Shown in pieces: positions 7,923 through 35,390 of a DNA stretch of 64,000 nt; position 1 is the stretch's first letter, and each line of letters opens with the position of its first letter. The DNA is taken from IMG/VR virus record IMGVR_UViG_3300030737_000007, positions 1 to 64,000 of that record; one strand, written 5' to 3'. A program made the translations under genes and the position numbers. Under the pieces are notes generated by a model, which saw only the letters and a program-made list of their open reading frames with translations, did not search any database and had not been told where the DNA came from. This stretch comes from a virus.

Positions 7923-7997
7923 TGGAGCCAAGATTCAGACTTGAACTGAAAACCTAACCATTACGAGTGGTTTGCTCTACCGTTGAGCTATCTTGGC
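7923..7997 (-). tRNA. tRNA-Thr(CGT)
   Basis: GCCAAGA acceptor pairs with TCTTGGC; TAGCTCAACGGTAGAGC D arm; AACCA-CTCGTAA-TGGTT anticodon arm; GTTCAAGT T loop; encoded CCA. Confidence 0.92.
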
Positions 7998-10215: not shown

Positions 10216-10291
10216 TGGCTGGGGAACTTGGGGTCGAACCAAGAACCGTTCGGTTAACAGCCGAATGCACTGCCAATTGTGCTATTCCCCA
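10216..10291 (-). tRNA. tRNA-Asn(GTT)
   Basis: TGGGGAA/TTCCCCA acceptor; TTCGG-CTGTTAA-CCGAA anticodon arm; GGTTCGAC T loop; encoded CCA. Confidence 0.93.
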
Positions 10292-12676: not shown

Positions 12677-13372
12677 TTACTGCGGGGATGCTTCGCGCTG
12701 GCGGCGGTTCTTTTGGGCTTCGCTTAGCTTGGCACGGTGTTCGGGCGACAGTTGACGACCTAACTTAGCTTGCCTCATTTTCTCAAGAGTCTCGGGAGAG
12801 AATTCTCGACCGAGCATCCGTTGCCTAATCTTTTCGCACGTTTCTTCGGAGTGCGGGCCTAGCTTTACGCCGCGCGTCCGAGCGCCTATTTTCTCTTTCG
12901 TTTCCTCGGTGTGCGTTCTTCCGAAGAAAGGATTCTTTTCTCCGACCAGCAACCCCGTCAGCGTTTCACTAATCTTCTGCCTTGTTTCGGGAGCAACTGC
13001 TCGACCGTAAGAAGGACTATCTGCTCCCTTGCGAGGATTCAGCCGATTGGGGTTCAAGTCACCGTAGGAGAAGCCTTCTCCGCCGTGGGTGCTGTTGTAT
13101 CCAAACTTGCGATCAGAGGATCGTAATTCTTTGATCCATTTCCGTTCCGCGTCGTCCAAATCATCTACGTTGTCTACTACTTCAAGGGTAGACAGAACGA
13201 AAGCTCCGGGGCCGTACTTGCGAATAGCGTGGCTAAAGTAGATGTTTTTGCCTTCTTCGGCCAGCTTGACGTGGGAACGCCAGCGGACGTGAGGCTCTTG
13301 AACGGTCTTTCCTACGTAGACTTTTCCGTTCACAGTGTTCGTAATGCAATAGATTACTGCCATTTTTCTCAC
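12677..13372 (-). CDS. Free-standing GIY-YIG homing endonuclease with NUMOD3-like repeats
   Basis: VIYCITNTVNGKVYVGKT, RWRSH, GYN; repeated HTEETKEKI/HSEETCEKI motifs. Confidence 0.92.
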   Translation of the reverse strand: MRKMAVIYCITNTVNGKVYVGKTVQEPHVRWRSHVKLAEEGKNIYFSHAIRKYGPGAFVLSTLEVVDNVDDLDDAERKWIKELRSSDRKFGYNSTHGGEGFSYGDLNPNRLNPRKGADSPSYGRAVAPETRQKISETLTGLLVGEKNPFFGRTHTEETKEKIGARTRGVKLGPHSEETCEKIRQRMLGREFSPETLEKMRQAKLGRQLSPEHRAKLSEAQKNRRQREASPQ

Positions 13373-13510: not shown

Positions 13511-16399
13511 CTAGCTGGAGGAAGTCTGAGACTGCAACCGGCGTAGCGTCATGGTAGAACCAGGCGAATCTGTTACCTTTTCCATTATGTGGAAACGGGC
13601 AAGTCGTTTCTGTTCCGCTTGCCTCATACGGTTGTTATTCCCGTATGTCCAGACTATTGCATACCTTTGCGGGTCTTCTTCGCTTAGTCGTTCACGGTCC
13701 CGTGTGTAGGGTTCCGCCTCGTTGGCATCACAGCGTCCGAGTCAATCAGAAGAAGTTTTACCTGCGCCGATGATTTAACGCAGGGTGTTGGTATACCTTC
13801 ACGGCTGTTATCTGCTGTATTACCAGCAAGATGAGTCATTTCTGCTCACCTCTTATGGTTCCAATTCCCATAAGGTCGGACTATCGCATCACCCCGAGGG
13901 GTGTTCTATCGCTTAGTCTCTCACGGCCCCTTTCGGGTTCCGCCCTGTCAGCCATCTCAGCTTCCAAGTCAATCAGATAGAATTTTCTAACTACGGCTCT
14001 CACCGTAGCGACGCAAGTATGTCTACGTTGTAGCTGACCCACGAACTAAGCTACGTTTACCAACACAGTCGGAGGCTGGGTCTGCACACCACCGATTTGA
14101 CGCGCAGGATCCGAAACCGAACCCTGTTCTGGAGCAGACTGGATGAAGAGCTTCACGTTTGTTACTCACCGTTGCCGATGGGGCGGGTCATTTCTGCTCG
14201 CCTCTGTACGTCACCGCACAGGTCGGACTATGTCATCACCCTCTTGCGAGGGGCAAGGTATATAGTCTCTACACGTTCCCGGATGTTCTCGGGCTTCGCT
14301 CGGCGTTTTCTCCAAAGGAGACGTTCACCGAATTAGCCTTGTGTTCGAAAGCAATTACTCGCTTAAGCTACCATTTTCAAATAGTTCTTCGATCCGTCTT
14401 CAGGATTCTTGCCGAGGAACACGGAGAAAATCGCGTCATCGCCAAAAATGTAAGTGTTGTAGAATGTGTTACCTGAGATGGTAACAGTAGGTGCCGTGGT
14501 CGTCTGCTTGAACTTAACCCCGCCGAACTTGATGACATCTTCGTTCTTCGGGAGCTCGAACAGCATAGCGCGCATGGAATCGTCACGCTTGATAATGTCG
14601 GTCAGACCATTAAAGCTCGTGTCGTTCAATACGTCGCGCACGACGTTGGGGTGGATGATTCCGCCGAACGAGTTGTCCATGAGAGGACGAGCGTTGACGG
14701 ATGCCAGCGACTGGGCCGCAGAGCGAATGTTGTTCGCAGTGAGGTAGGAGCCGTTGGCGAGCTGGATGTTCACCAGGGAATCGACCGCAACAGCCGAGTC
14801 AGCGGTAAGCTGGACAAGGGAGTTGAGGGTGAGGGCCAGGCGATAGTTCAGTTCGTTTGCAAGGTTCTGCAACAGACCTGGGTCATCGATGGCCACGTCG
14901 AGTGCCAAGTCCGAGGAATTGATAAAATCAGCGTACTGGCCGATTGTAGCAACGATCTTCGAGCTGGACTCGCTGATGGGGGAGCCCACGGTCCCTTCCG
15001 CCGCCTGGTTCAAATTGGCTGCGAGGAGAGCGTAGGTGTAGACAGTTGTGTTTTGGAGATGCCCTTTCGGGTCACCGGGCTTTCGCCCCTCTTATGTCAC
15101 CATAAGGTCGCTCTGTACGTCGCCGCACAGCTCGGACTCTATCTTCATTTCCAGATAATGGAAATGTCCGGCGTATTAGCCTCTACGGGTTCTGGTTGCC
15201 CAGTCTTCCCTCGGTATTGTCTCAAAGAGAGTTCCACCGATATAGCCGGATTTTACTTCAGCACATTAATACTGAATCTGGTTTCCCTGCCGAAGAGGCA
15301 GAGGGCGCTGCTTGGTCATGCTCAAAAAGGGCGTTTGGGCCTTGAGATTGGGCACGGCCTCGCGTTCATCATTGTGTTTAGGCCGCCAGCATCTCTGATG
15401 GGGCGCTCTGCATATCGCTATGCAGTTCAGACTGTATCTTCAGTTTCTTCAAAGCAATTAGGCGAAGATAAAGTTCTTCCCGTTTGGGCGGGCAATGAAC
15501 CTTGTGGCCTAATCCAACGTATTCCATTCCAGCTAGGGCCTCGTCTCTCTTGACTACGAGATACGGAAGCGTGTGGAGGAGAAACTGCTCAATGTGGAGT
15601 TTGTTGAACAAAGACCACTGGAAACAATTCCTTTTTCCTTTACTTCGAACGTCGCCGCCGTACAGTTTCTTGCAAGAATCAAGCACGGTCTTGTCGTTGT
15701 TCGAGATGGTCACGATCAGATGGTAGCAGATAACACCCCGAGAGAGGGTTTTGTTCACTCGGATGCAACCTTCGCCATCAAAGAAACCAGCCATGTAGGA
15801 GGGTTCTGCTTTGAGGTAACTGCTGTTCGTCTCAGTCGTTACGGACCCGTGTTGCTTCATTTCCTTGAGTTTTTGGAGGTATCCATGTTTCTGGTCCTCG
15901 GACAGATTTTCTCTGTTCTCAATAAACTCAATCAGAACGTCAGCTTGTTCCCTTTTGTATCTCAAGTAGGGCAGAATAGCTTTAAGGAAAGCAACGGTAG
16001 AAGGGAAGGATTGCAGGTACCAAATGTACCAATCCTCGCCTGCCTTGTTGTTTACATTGCGGGTAAAGCTGCCCCCGAAATGTAGCACAGACCACTGCAT
16101 CAAAGCTCTTGATTTATTGCTCAAGTATACTTTGGGTTCGAAGTAGGTCTTGCTTCCTCGTTTGTGGGTGGCGATCCGGATGCAACCTTCTGCATCGAAA
16201 ATCCCAGCCATGTAGCTTTTGGTTTTCTCTTTCACGGTTTCCTCGGTATTGTCTATATCCTTATGCTACCACACCTAGTAGTAAAAGTCAACAGAGTTTC
16301 ACCGATTTAGAACAGTTTTACTTCACCAAGAATTTAGTGAATGGCCACCAAGTTCGGTAGCGCGCCAGATGTAACGATTGATGCAGGAGAGTAACTCAT
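13511..16399 (-). CDS. Major capsid protein (N4-gp56-like), 7 exons, 327 aa after splicing
   Basis: Exons 16399-16336, 15369-15271, 15042-14381, 14153-14088, 14041-14025, 13799-13778 and 13564-13511 total 984 nt and give one open frame: MSYSPASIVTSGALPNLVAIHYEREAVPNLKAQTPF...IQFYTYALLAAN...GSKNYKLFIQSAPEQGSVSDPARQIGGWVSYNVRYTNTLRPGSTMTLRRLQSQTSSS*. Follows portal and scaffold. Confidence 0.88.
13565..13777 (-). mobile_element. Group I intron (capsid intron 6), 213 nt, ORF-less
   Basis: Exon CCTGCGT pairs with IGS GCGCAGG (U.G at the splice site); P3 CTTCTT/AAGAAG; P7 GACTA/TAGTC; terminal G. Confidence 0.9.
13800..14024 (-). mobile_element. Group I intron (capsid intron 5), 225 nt, ORF-less
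   Basis: P1 CAACGT/GCGTCG; P10 ATACTT/AGGTAT; P3 TTCTATC/GATAGAA; P7 GACTA/TAGTC; terminal G. Confidence 0.9.
14042..14087 (-). mobile_element. 46-nt coreless group I-like mini-intron (capsid intron 4)
   Basis: Removal restores ...QIGG|WVSYN...; follows U and ends in G; IGS GCCTCCGA pairs with exon TCGGTGGT; GACCCA pairs with 3' exon TGGGTC; contains an in-frame TAG. Confidence 0.75.
14154..14380 (-). mobile_element. Group I intron (capsid intron 3), 227 nt, ORF-less
   Basis: 5' site after AACTAT; P3 CAAGG/CCTTG; AATTCGGTGAA and AACGCCGAG (P4); GTAGAGACTA and GACATAGTCC (P7); terminal G. Confidence 0.9.
15043..15270 (-). mobile_element. Group I intron (capsid intron 2), 228 nt, ORF-less
   Basis: P1 TTCAGT/GCTGAA; P3 TCCGGC/GCCGGA; TATCGGTGGA and AATACCGAG; AAGATAGAGTCC; terminal G. 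Confidence 0.9.
15378..16235 (-). CDS. Double-motif LAGLIDADG homing endonuclease (intron-encoded)
   Basis: SYMAGIFDAEGCI and SYMAGFFDGEGCI motifs, each followed by LPYL..K. Confidence 0.93.
   Translation of the reverse strand: MKEKTKSYMAGIFDAEGCIRIATHKRGSKTYFEPKVYLSNKSRALMQWSVLHFGGSFTRNVNNKAGEDWYIWYLQSFPSTVAFLKAILPYLRYKREQADVLIEFIENRENLSEDQKHGYLQKLKEMKQHGSVTTETNSSYLKAEPSYMAGFFDGEGCIRVNKTLSRGVICYHLIVTISNNDKTVLDSCKKLYGGDVRSKGKRNCFQWSLFNKLHIEQFLLHTLPYLVVKRDEALAGMEYVGLGHKVHCPPKREELYLRLIALKKLKIQSELHSDMQSAPSEMLAA
16263..16291 (-). promoter_or_regulatory. Promoter inside intron 1, upstream of the endonuclease
   Basis: TTGACT-17 nt-TAGCAT with TG extension, about 30 nt before the GTG start. Confidence 0.6.
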
Positions 16400-34202: not shown

Positions 34203-34269
34203 GCTCCCCTACAACCTGGCCGCCAAGTGGCGGGGAGCGGGCAACGGGTTTATCCCGGCTAATAGGTTG
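34203..34269 (+). ncRNA. HDV-like self-cleaving ribozyme
   Basis: P1 GCTCCCC/GGGGAGC, P2 CAACCTG/TAGGTTG, P3 GCC/GGC, P1.1 CC/GG, GCAA, P4 CGGG/CCCG, J4/2 GCTAA (catalytic C34259). L3 starts with G rather than the usual U. Confidence 0.82.
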
Positions 34270-35390
34270 AGAAAGAGAGGGTTACATGAGAAAATATCCT
34301 GAACACGAAAAACAAGCGAAGGTGCTCGACCAGAGTCAAACAATTGGCTCGTTCCTAGATAACGGCGGTCTGGGTGATGGTGTAGTTTTAGCCAAATGGG
34401 ACGAACGTCCGGGGAGGGATAATCTGTACCCCATCCACATGGATATCAACAAAATACTCGCCGCTTATTTTGAGATCGACCTCAACAAGATCGAAAAGGA
34501 AAAGCAGCAGATGCTGAAAGATCTCCGAACGGCTGCCGCATGAAACGCCATGATCTAATGCGCTACACCTACGGCGATATCTCTTACCTGGTAATAGTCC
34601 AGCGGGCAACGCTCGACGAGTTCGGGACTGTACTAGTCAAGCGGGATGACGACGGGCACTATTTCTTCGCCACGCCCGAACGGTTGGAGGCTGTAATTGC
34701 TGATCCCAGCGTTTAGCCGCTCCCCCAGCCGTTTACCACCAAAGGCCGCGACCAGGTTTAGGGCCGCGATTCTACCCGCTGGACGCAAAACAGTAAGCCG
34801 CACGGCGCGAACGGATTGGACCTGTGTAGCCTGTATGAAGGGTAAACACGGGTGCGTAAGTCGCAAATGTAACTGTGTCCGGTGTAATCTAGCTTGACGG
34901 GCACGAAACCGCAGCGTAGTATTCCATTATTTGGAAAGAGAGGGCCAAATGACTAAGAAGGACGCCGTAGCAACAGCAGTCAAGCGAGTAGACGAGACTG
35001 GGTTTACCTTCCTCGTTTTGCGCCGAGGATATGGCTATCGAGCGCAAATCTCTTCCTACCCAGTTGCGCGAGGCTGGAAGATCGCCGAACAGATTGGTGT
35101 CGGCAACGTACAGAACTTCCGCGATGACCTACAGGAATTCAACCCGATTTGTGATGTCGTTTCTTAGGAGGAACCGATGCCGAGATACAAAGTAGCTTTA
35201 GAAGTCGAGATCGAAGCCGAAAGCGCAGAGGCCGCGTTTGCTTACGTCCGGTCTTACGCCACGATCACAGACGAGTACGCGGCCCAACACGGTACGCAAT
35301 CGCAGTTTGAGTTCTATGTGTTGCCGCCAGAAGAGCTGGCCGAGGGAGAATTGGTAATTCAGTAACACGCCCGCCCGAGCGTATCGGGTA

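What the first reader, a model, noticed from the sequence alone, without database searches (positions are those of the whole stretch)
14042..14087. A 46-nt coreless 'satellite' group I intron that would have to borrow a neighbour's catalytic core
Seen (minus strand): ...ATCGGTGGT|GTGCAGACCCAGCCTCCGACTGTGTTGGTAAACGTAGCTTAGTTCG|TGGGTC... It shifts the frame and contains an in-frame TAG; exact removal gives QIGG-WVSYN. It keeps the substrate elements of a group I intron: P1 (UCGGUGGU with GCCUCCGA, U.G at the cut), a perfect 6-bp P10 (GACCCA with UGGGUC), a P9-like hairpin (CUGUGUU/AACGUAG, compare TCCGACCTGTGCGGTGACGTACAG in intron 3) and terminal G. It lacks all of P3-P8. Full ribozymes lie 17 nt downstream and 66 nt upstream. 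Established: group I cores can act on P1 substrates supplied separately. Inference: a non-autonomous intron spliced by an adjacent or excised ribozyme, in an essential gene. I know of no described phage example.
Basis: partly seen in the sequence, partly recalled or inferred. Interest (0 to 1): 0.92.

Follow-up and report, generated by a model that had tools for sequence, protein, structure and literature searches.

The report
Core-less mini-intron in phage capsid gene
A 46-base insert that breaks this peat phage's capsid gene keeps the splice-site pairings of a self-splicing group I intron but has no ribozyme; in related phages such inserts always lie just upstream of a complete intron, so it probably borrows that intron's catalytic core, though no RNA data show this.

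Summary
Window 14042-14087 (minus strand) is a 46-nt, frame-breaking insert between the QIGG and WVSYN codons of an N4-gp56-type major capsid gene. Intron-less relatives read these codons contiguously.

It is not an artefact or a dead gene. In 81 related capsid loci, 182 inserts fall into two size classes: 21 minis of 38-59 nt (14 distinct, 5 sites) and full introns of 189 nt or more, with nothing between.

Every mini has:
- a U.G pair at the 5' cut and a terminal G;
- one contiguous guide pairing with both exons (P1 and P10), with compensatory changes;
- a third helix (Px) between its 3' half and the next exon.

None has room for a core. Every distinct mini lies 16-52 nt upstream of a full group I intron, and four have no intron upstream. 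The genes are under strong purifying selection.

Best reading: an internally deleted, non-autonomous group I intron spliced by a downstream intron's core. In this window the tail pairing favours the second intron downstream (I6) over the adjacent one (I5).

No RNA evidence could be obtained. I found no phage report in the literature. Earlier notes of this scan describe the same kind of element in other phage genomes.

The parts
14042..14087 (-). 46-nt core-less mini-intron
   Evidence: Insert between profile nt 894/895 of the capsid CDS. No match to Rfam RF00028 or to family model R1.
14083..14087 (-). Leader GUGCA, part of the P1 loop
   Evidence: Sequence. Variable among the minis.
14077..14082 (-). 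Guide, P10 strand GACCCA
   Evidence: Pairs with the first 6 nt of exon 5 and is contiguous with the P1 strand.
14069..14076 (-). Guide, P1 strand GCCUCCGA
   Evidence: Pairs with the last 8 nt of exon 4: 7 of 8 pairs, U.G at the cut, U:U at position -4.
14055..14068 (-). Linker CUGUGUUGGUAAAC. GGUAAAC resembles the segment after P1 in intron I6
   Evidence: Sequence comparison with I6. This is inference.
14049..14054 (-). Px strand GUAGCU
   Evidence: 6-bp duplex with exon 5 nt 7-12. A helix in the same register exists in the other minis.
14042..14048 (-). 3' tail UAGUUC plus terminal G
   Evidence: All 14 distinct minis end in G. The tail UC is complementary to GA in J7/9 of I6.
14088..14153 (-). 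Exon 4 (66 nt, KLFIQSAPEQGSVSDPARQIGG). Its last 8 nt form the 5' strand of P1
   Evidence: Spliced alignment.
14025..14041 (-). Exon 5 (17 nt, WVSYNV). Nt 1-6 pair in P10, nt 7-12 in Px, nt 14-17 in P1 of intron I5
   Evidence: The P1 of I5 was read from the sequence.
13800..14024 (-). Intron I5, a full 225-nt group I intron of the compact 'GAUUGAC' family
   Evidence: R1 183.5 bits. The family has covarying P3, P4-P6, P8, P9 and P9.1.
13778..13799 (-). Exon 6 (22 nt, RYTNTLR)
13565..13777 (-). Intron I6, a full 213-nt group I intron of the same family. Favoured helper
   Evidence: R1 182.4 bits. Its J7/9 GA matches the mini's tail UC. The other two site-894 minis lie 39 nt upstream of their homologous site-933 intron.
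13511..13564 (-). Exon 7 (PGSTMTLRRLQSQTSSS plus stop)
14154..14380 (-). Intron I3, a full group I intron upstream of exon 4
   Evidence: Rfam RF00028 50.9 bits. Boundaries.

Best explanation
The 46-nt insert is a non-autonomous 'mini' group I intron. It is the joined 5' and 3' ends of a compact group I intron whose whole catalytic core (P3-P9) has been deleted.

What it keeps is what makes an RNA a substrate for group I chemistry:
- a guide that pairs with the end of exon 4 (P1, with U.G at the cut);
- next to it on the same strand, pairing with the start of exon 5 (P10);
- a third helix (Px) that ties its 3' part to exon 5;
- a terminal G.

Shown here:
- The element is real.
- It belongs to a family kept by selection.
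- Its helices covary with the exons.
- It has no core.
- Every family member lies 16-52 nt upstream of a full intron.

Inferred:
- The core of a downstream full intron in the same pre-mRNA docks the mini's P1.
- That core carries out the two usual steps: G attack at GGU|G, then exon ligation with the mini's last G in the G-site.
- The same core then removes, or has already removed, its own intron.
- In this window the tail pairing favours I6 (39 nt away once I5 is out) over the adjacent I5.

A downstream position makes sense. The substrate is transcribed first and is already waiting when the core folds.
For: Reality and need for removal:
- Homologues are contiguous across the site.
- The gene is intact once all inserts are removed.
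- 23 sequencing runs hold at least half of the sampled words of the stretch.

A distinct class:
- 182 inserts in 81 loci split into 38-59 nt (21 inserts, 14 distinct) and 189 nt or more, with none between.

Group I substrate signature:
- U.G at the cut in 14 of 14, and a terminal G in 14 of 14.
- 180 of 196 guide cells are paired.
- 13 of 14 guide positions show compensatory change, 6 of 14 within site 895 alone.
- Guide score is 12.9/14 against the mini's own exons and 8.8/14 against exons of other sites.

Px helix:
- It starts just after P10 in most minis.
- Mean duplex energy is -9.1 kcal/mol with the mini's own exon and -4.7 kcal/mol across sites.
- It covaries with the exon's codon differences: UGUAGC/GCUACA against UGUAAC/GUUACA, and ACAACGA/UCGUUGU against AACGACG/CGUCGUU.

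No core:
- No Rfam or R1 match.

Link to a downstream helper:
- All 14 distinct minis have a full intron 16-52 nt downstream.
- L007, L056, L063 and L068 have no intron upstream.
- The chance expectation is 3e-4 (counting 4 sites) to 5e-7 (counting 8 site-partner pairs).
- The helper sites also occur without a mini; a mini never occurs without a helper.

Helpers are real ribozymes:
- 31 of 39 predicted pairs covary.

Tail pairing:
- In full introns the 2 nt before the last G pair with J7/9 in 41 of 73 cases; 0 of 2000 shuffles reach this.
- The three site-894 minis each fit their own site-933 intron: UC-GA, CC-GG, UU-AG.

Origin:
- Mini ends match the ends of family introns. L047 has UCUAAACCUU, as in its neighbour. 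L056 has GAUAACAAAUUG against GAGUAACAAAUUG.

Selection:
- Window against L052 shows 167 synonymous and 27 non-synonymous codon differences, yet a 14-nt stretch of the guide is identical.
Against: - No spliced RNA was seen. The one RNA run covers only exon 3 of a relative. The exact junction 26-mer was found only in a natural intron-less relative.
- The tail-to-helper fit holds for only 4 of 9 minis when tested against their nearest scorable helper, against about 0.18 by chance. For this window it does not fit the adjacent I5.
- The P1 of this mini has a U:U mismatch, and the site-894 subfamily (3 members) shows no compensatory change of its own.
- Tight linkage to a mobile intron could also come from co-conversion during homing.
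- Single-sequence folding is not significant.
- All data come from metagenome contigs. There is no cultured phage.
Confidence: 0.6

Rival explanations
1. The mini is spliced by group I chemistry supplied in trans by any group I ribozyme in the cell, for example an excised intron from another copy of the transcript. No specific downstream partner is needed.
For: All five full introns of this phage lie in the same very highly expressed gene, so excised cores would be abundant. P1 docking does not depend on sequence (established knowledge of group I ribozymes). The tail fit to the nearest helper is only partial.
Against: This does not explain why every distinct mini is 16-52 nt upstream of a full intron, and never only downstream of one or far from one.
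Confidence: 0.15
2. The mini splices itself as a minimal group I intron, using the exon context for structure. This has been claimed for the 67-nt PaSSU intron of Phialophora rDNA.
For: [quoted passage not shown]
Against: The phage minis have no P7 or G-binding hairpin and no spare sequence to build one; the smallest is 38 nt. The fungal claim rests on a P7 and on about 300 nt of extra exon. The strict association with a downstream full intron would be left unexplained.
Confidence: 0.07
3. The mini is removed by proteins: an endonuclease plus an RNA ligase that seals the nick in the exon-guide duplex.
For: P1 and P10 lay both exon ends side by side on one continuous guide, which is the geometry of a splinted nick.
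Against: An invariant U.G at the cut and an invariant terminal G are group I hallmarks with no known role in protein cutting. No candidate enzyme was identified, and the ends match those of group I introns.
Confidence: 0.06
4. The mini is not removed at the RNA level. Either the gene is defective, or ribosomes hop over the gap as in T4 gene 60.
For: The gap size of 38-59 nt resembles known bypass gaps. In L056 a stop codon directly follows the 5' junction.
Against: There are no matching take-off and landing codons. In site-895 minis the Trp codon is split U|GG, which hopping cannot restore. Thirteen of 14 genes are intact after removal and are under purifying selection. The guide covaries with the exons.
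Confidence: 0.04
5. The nearness to a full intron reflects how minis spread, not how they are spliced. They are carried along in the co-conversion tract when the neighbouring intron homes.
For: Exon bases around the mini are identical in the window, L052 and L058 while the rest of the gene has diverged. Homing endonuclease genes lie in I1 and just downstream of the capsid gene.
Against: Co-conversion works in both directions, yet the minis are on the upstream side at all 5 sites. This reading still needs some way to splice the mini, so it complements the main reading rather than replacing it.
Confidence: 0.08

Closest known systems
Self-splicing group I introns of phages (Rfam RF00028; T4 td, nrdB and sunY; the three introns of Staphylococcus phage Twort orf142 with exon skipping, from my own knowledge of Landthaler and Shub 1999)
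   Same: U.G at the 5' splice site inside P1. A guide whose 5' part forms P10 with the 3' exon. A terminal G. Location in an essential phage gene beside other introns. The ends are homologous to those of the compact intron family in the same gene.
   Different: P3-P9 are entirely absent, including the G-binding P7, so it cannot be a ribozyme. It has an extra helix with the 3' exon. It is 38-59 nt long, against 189 nt or more.
Small 'degenerate' group I introns of fungal nuclear SSU rDNA (Phialophora PaSSU 63-75 nt, Arthonia 63 nt, Porpidia 78 nt; PMC3160393)
   Same: Very small. [quoted passage not shown] They are thought to arise by internal deletion.
   Different: The fungal introns are drawn with a P7 and G-site, end in U, sit in rRNA, are reported to self-splice when given long exon context, and have no adjacent full intron. 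The phage minis lack P7, end in G, sit in protein-coding genes, and always precede a full intron.
Degenerate group I introns of lichen rDNA (10.1101/2021.05.01.442275)
   Same: Group I introns that have lost sequences needed for catalysis, yet are removed in vivo by outside help.
   Different: They are still about 230 nt long with most of the core. The helper is unknown and presumed to be protein. They are eukaryotic.
Group III introns of Euglena plastids and spliceosomal introns, as relatives of group II introns (own knowledge)
   Same: The same logic: an intron stripped down to its substrate parts, while catalysis is supplied by a separate RNA of the same ancestry.
   Different: A different intron class and different chemistry (lariat). 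No such split has been described for group I in nature.
Engineered group I ribozymes acting on a separate P1 substrate, such as the Tetrahymena and sunY constructs (own knowledge)
   Same: They show that a core can cleave and ligate a P1 helix that it does not carry itself.
   Different: They are laboratory constructs. Here the arrangement is natural and conserved.

Membership tests
Group I intron (self-splicing ribozyme, RF00028) | P1 helix with a U.G wobble at the 5' splice site | tested here: met
   U.G in 14 of 14 distinct minis. In the window, 7 of 8 pairs form.
Group I intron (self-splicing ribozyme, RF00028) | P10 between the guide and the start of the 3' exon, plus a terminal G | tested here: met
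   6-bp P10 contiguous with the P1 strand. All 14 minis end in G.
Group I intron (self-splicing ribozyme, RF00028) | Catalytic core P3-P9 with a G-binding site in P7 | tested here: not met
   No RF00028 hit even at E <= 10. No R1 hit. The 46 nt are accounted for by leader, guide, linker, Px strand and tail.
Group I intron (self-splicing ribozyme, RF00028) | Splices by two transesterifications started by guanosine | not testable with these tools
   Needs in vitro splicing or RNA data. None was obtained.
Compact 'GAUUGAC' group I family of this capsid gene (model R1) | 5' and 3' ends homologous to those of family members | tested here: inconclusive
   Clear for L047, L007 and L056. For the window's mini, only GGUAAAC and the tail UUCG resemble I6.
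Small degenerate fungal rDNA group I introns (PaSSU type) | [quoted passage not shown] | tested here: met
   compared with PMC3160393.
Small degenerate fungal rDNA group I introns (PaSSU type) | A retained P7 with a G-site, and a terminal U | tested here: not met
   There is no spare hairpin in minis of 38-46 nt, and the last base is G.
Translational bypass element (T4 gene 60, mitochondrial byps) | Matching take-off and landing codons flanking the gap | tested here: not met
   Take-off codon GGU against UCG before the resume codon. The Trp codon is split in site-895 minis.

The most novel reading that the evidence does not exclude
One group I ribozyme serves two introns. The mini would be a natural, substrate-only group I intron that has handed catalysis to the full intron downstream in the same transcript. 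That makes it a group I counterpart of the step from group II introns to group III and spliceosomal introns. In this window it would work as a cascade: I5 leaves first, then I6 removes the mini and itself.
Probability: 0.55. Interest if true: 0.92.

Novelty: new variant of a known kind. Interest (0 to 1): 0.85.

Why it matters
Group I introns are the textbook case of an intron that carries its own enzyme. A conserved natural family that has lost the enzyme and survives only next to a complete intron would show that group I splicing can be divided into a substrate intron and a helper ribozyme. So far that division is known only from engineered constructs and, for group II introns, from the proposed origin of the spliceosome.

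It also matters for annotation. Gene callers truncate or split such capsid genes, and 38-59-nt inserts look like frameshift errors. The element gives a small, designable test system of about 600 nt for RNA-RNA recognition between a ribozyme core and a foreign P1/P10 module.

Tried and rejected
- RNA evidence. The only RNA run that holds any of the stretch covers 400 nt of exon 3 of a relative and shows no junction.
- Spliced junction search. A scan of metagenome contigs for the exact 26-mer found one contig, a natural intron-less relative at 68-85% identity, not a cDNA. No intron-less contig is close to any intron-bearing one; the best match is 84%.
- A first protein search with lengths 'longer' found nothing because it excluded the true length range.
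- A loose DNA pattern returned 120 unrelated loci, which I ignored. Two specific patterns returned only contigs already held, so IMG/VR seems exhausted for this site.
- Single-sequence folding gave z = -0.05.
- RNAduplex between each mini and its helper gave no consistent pairing.
- The conserved leader AGCAGCAU has no complement nearby.
- Translational bypassing was considered and rejected for the reasons given under rivals.
- Cultured phages: only Tunturiibacter phage Tunturi_3 has a related capsid gene (42% identity), and it is intron-less. No intron of this family was found in 50,697 phage records.
Full report
WHAT IS THERE

The minus strand of window 13511-16399 carries a major capsid gene of the N4-gp56 type. 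Intron-less homologues are 327-329 aa long. The only cultured relative is the intron-less gene of Tunturiibacter phage Tunturi_3, at 42% identity. The window is part of a 91.9-kb IMG/VR virus record from peat.

I built a profile of 22 intron-less coding sequences and a spliced aligner. They give seven exons and six inserts:

| Part | Window coordinates | Notes |
|---|---|---|
| E1 | 16399-16336 | |
| I1 | 16335-15370 | carries a LAGLIDADG ORF |
| E2 | 15369-15271 | |
| I2 | 15270-15043 | |
| E3 | 15042-14381 | |
| I3 | 14380-14154 | |
| E4 | 14153-14088 | 66 nt |
| mini | 14087-14042 | 46 nt |
| E5 | 14041-14025 | 17 nt |
| I5 | 14024-13800 | 225 nt |
| E6 | 13799-13778 | 22 nt |
| I6 | 13777-13565 | 213 nt |
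| E7 | 13564-13511 | |

Joining the exons gives an uninterrupted 327-aa protein that aligns end to end with the homologues. Rfam recognises I2 and I3, and I1 weakly.

I5 and I6 belong to a compact family that Rfam misses. In an alignment of 22 members, 31 of 39 predicted pairs covary across P3, P4-P6, P8, P9 and P9.1, and the P7 strands are conserved.

THE OBSERVATION

The 46 nt are as quoted. They break the frame, carry an in-frame TAG and end in G.

- P10 is a perfect 6 bp.
- Folding this one sequence is not better than folding shuffles.

The assembly is sound. Twenty-three peat runs hold at least half of the sampled words of the 3-kb stretch. A run not flagged as the source has depth across the insert and no variant.

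THE FAMILY

Eighty related capsid loci from IMG/VR plus the window contain 182 inserts. Their sizes are sharply bimodal:

- 21 are 38-59 nt long;
- none is 60-188 nt;
- the rest are 189-315 nt (no ORF) or 600-2000 nt, a size that fits an intron-borne endonuclease gene such as the LAGLIDADG ORF of I1.

The 21 minis reduce to 14 distinct sequences from at least 14 data sets. They sit at five positions of the coding sequence:

| Position (profile nt) | Members |
|---|---|
| 89/90 | L068 (also L069, L070) |
| 558/559 | L056, L063 |
| 894/895 | window, L052 type, L058 type |
| 895/896 | seven types |
| 933/934 | L044 |

After removal of all inserts, 13 of the 14 genes are intact; L063 has one extra base elsewhere in the gene. 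The genes are under strong purifying selection. Window against L052 shows 167 synonymous and 27 non-synonymous codon differences. So these phages have kept their minis through long divergence, and the minis must be removed from the mRNA.

ANATOMY

Every mini has the same plan.

1. The last exon base is U, paired with a G of the mini, in 14 of 14.
2. From that G runs a strand complementary to the 5' exon (P1). Directly 5' of it, with no gap, lies a strand complementary to the first 3-7 nt of the 3' exon (P10).
 - 180 of 196 guide cells are standard pairs.
 - 13 of 14 positions show changes on both sides. Six of 14 do so among the seven site-895 minis alone, where the differences are synonymous codon changes in the exon.
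 - Each guide scores 12.9/14 on its own exons and 8.8/14 on exons of other sites.
3. A third helix, which I call Px, joins the mini's 3' half to the 3' exon just after P10.
 - It also covaries: UGUAGC/GCUACA against UGUAAC/GUUACA at site 895, and ACAACGA/UCGUUGU against AACGACG/CGUCGUU at site 558.
 - L068 has 9 bp and L044 has 8-9 bp.
 - Mean duplex energy is -9.1 kcal/mol with the mini's own exon and -4.7 kcal/mol across sites.
4. A 3-9-nt tail ends in G in most minis; L058 carries 17 nt after Px.

In the window these parts are P1 14095-14088 with 14076-14069, P10 14041-14036 with 14082-14077, and Px 14035-14030 with 14054-14049.

In the 16-18-nt exons, P10, Px and the P1 of the next intron together cover almost the whole exon. 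There is no room for a core. L044's 38 nt are fully used by leader, guide, Px strand and tail.

ORIGIN

The ends of the minis match the ends of the compact intron family in the same genes.

- L047 continues after its guide with UCUAAACCUU, exactly as its neighbour does before P3.
- L056 ends in GAUAACAAAUUG, against GAGUAACAAAUUG in full introns.
- The 5' end of the site-558 minis matches that of full introns at the same site.

Full introns also use sites 558 and 933, but none was seen at 894-896. The simplest origin is internal deletion of a full intron. Minis at sites 558 and 895 share the leader AGCAGCAUAA, which hints at a common parent or at movement between sites.

LINK TO A FULL INTRON

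- Every distinct mini is followed by a short exon of 16, 17, 18, 24, 27, 38, 39 or 52 nt and then by a full-length intron.
- L007, L056, L063 and L068 have no intron upstream at all.
- Given where the full introns lie in each gene, the chance of this pattern is 3e-4 counting one event per site, or 5e-7 counting eight site-partner pairs.
- The helper sites also occur without a mini. The reverse was never seen.
- Model R1 and Rfam find no other group I core in the 91.9-kb record, so the only ribozymes this phage has lie in the capsid transcript.

WHICH HELPER

In full introns of this gene family, the two bases before the last G pair with bases 3-4 of J7/9 (P9.0). This holds in 41 of 73 introns, and 0 of 2000 shuffles reach that number.

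Mini tails fit their nearest scorable helper in 4 of 9 cases, against about 0.18 by chance, so this is only suggestive. The three site-894 minis do each fit their own site-933 intron: UC-GA in the window, CC-GG in L052, UU-AG in L058.

The window's tail does not fit I5 (AC). In L052 and L058 the site-933 intron is the nearest one, 39 nt downstream. I5 therefore looks like a later arrival in the window. I predict the order I5 first, then the mini by I6's core, then I6.

MECHANISM AND RIVALS

The best reading is a substrate-only group I intron spliced by a downstream core in cis (0.6). The upstream position fits transcription order: the substrate already exists when the core folds.

The rivals are:

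- trans action by any excised intron (0.15);
- true self-splicing, as claimed for the fungal PaSSU intron (0.07);
- protein cutting and ligation (0.06);
- no RNA removal, or ribosome hopping (0.04). There are no matching take-off and landing codons, and the Trp codon is split U|GG in site-895 minis;
- linkage through co-conversion, which can add to the main reading but does not replace it.

WHAT IS KNOWN

Full-text searches found no phage report.

The nearest published things are the 56-81-nt 'degenerate' group I introns of fungal rDNA. These are drawn with P1, P7, P10 and a helix to the 3' exon, and are said to self-splice when given long exon context (PMC3160393). Next come the roughly 230-nt non-self-splicing lichen rDNA introns (10.1101/2021.05.01.442275).

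The phage minis share P1, P10 and the exon helix. They lack P7, end in G, sit in protein-coding genes and always precede a full intron.

Earlier notes of this scan describe the same kind of element in capsid, portal and tRNA genes of other phage genomes. Those are unchecked AI notes, and I did not use them as evidence.

VERDICT

- Observation: confirmed.
- Interpretation: supported, with corrections.
- Dependence on the helper: inferred, not shown.

Noticed in passing
window 13511-16399 (-) and loci L002-L081: This capsid gene family is extremely rich in introns. Full-length group I introns use more than 40 different insertion sites, and one gene (L066) has 8 full introns plus a mini. Exons can be as short as 16 nt.
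   Followed up: partly
L065, L068-L071, L078 (site 558); L047, L058 and others (site 218): 23 of 161 full-length inserts cannot be placed so that the exon ends in U and the intron ends in G. Those at sites 558 and 218 seem to end in UA. This could be a real non-G last base or a flaw of my aligner.
   Followed up: no
alignment A1 (I5, I6 and 20 relatives): An invariant AACA, usually within GUAACA, lies 3-6 nt before the last G of every member of the compact intron family and is kept in about half of the minis. Its role is unknown.
   Followed up: no
L007 and L066 (site 895), L063 (site 558): Minis at two different sites share the leader AGCAGCAU(A/G)A in the P1 loop. This suggests a common parent or movement of minis between sites. 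No complement was found nearby.
   Followed up: partly
window 12680-13363 (-): A free-standing GIY-YIG/NUMOD3 homing endonuclease gene lies directly downstream of the capsid gene. Intron I1 carries a LAGLIDADG ORF (15381-16265).
   Followed up: partly
window 34203-34271 (+): Rfam match to an HDV-like ribozyme (RF02682, 45 bits, just above the gathering score).
   Followed up: no
window 7926-7997 and 10219-10291 (-): Two tRNA genes (Rfam RF00005, 67 and 65 bits).
   Followed up: no
L063:4072-4074: One extra base in exon 1 of this mini-bearing capsid gene breaks the frame. It is either a sequencing error or a pseudogene, and it is the only one of 14 mini-bearing genes that is not intact.
   Followed up: no
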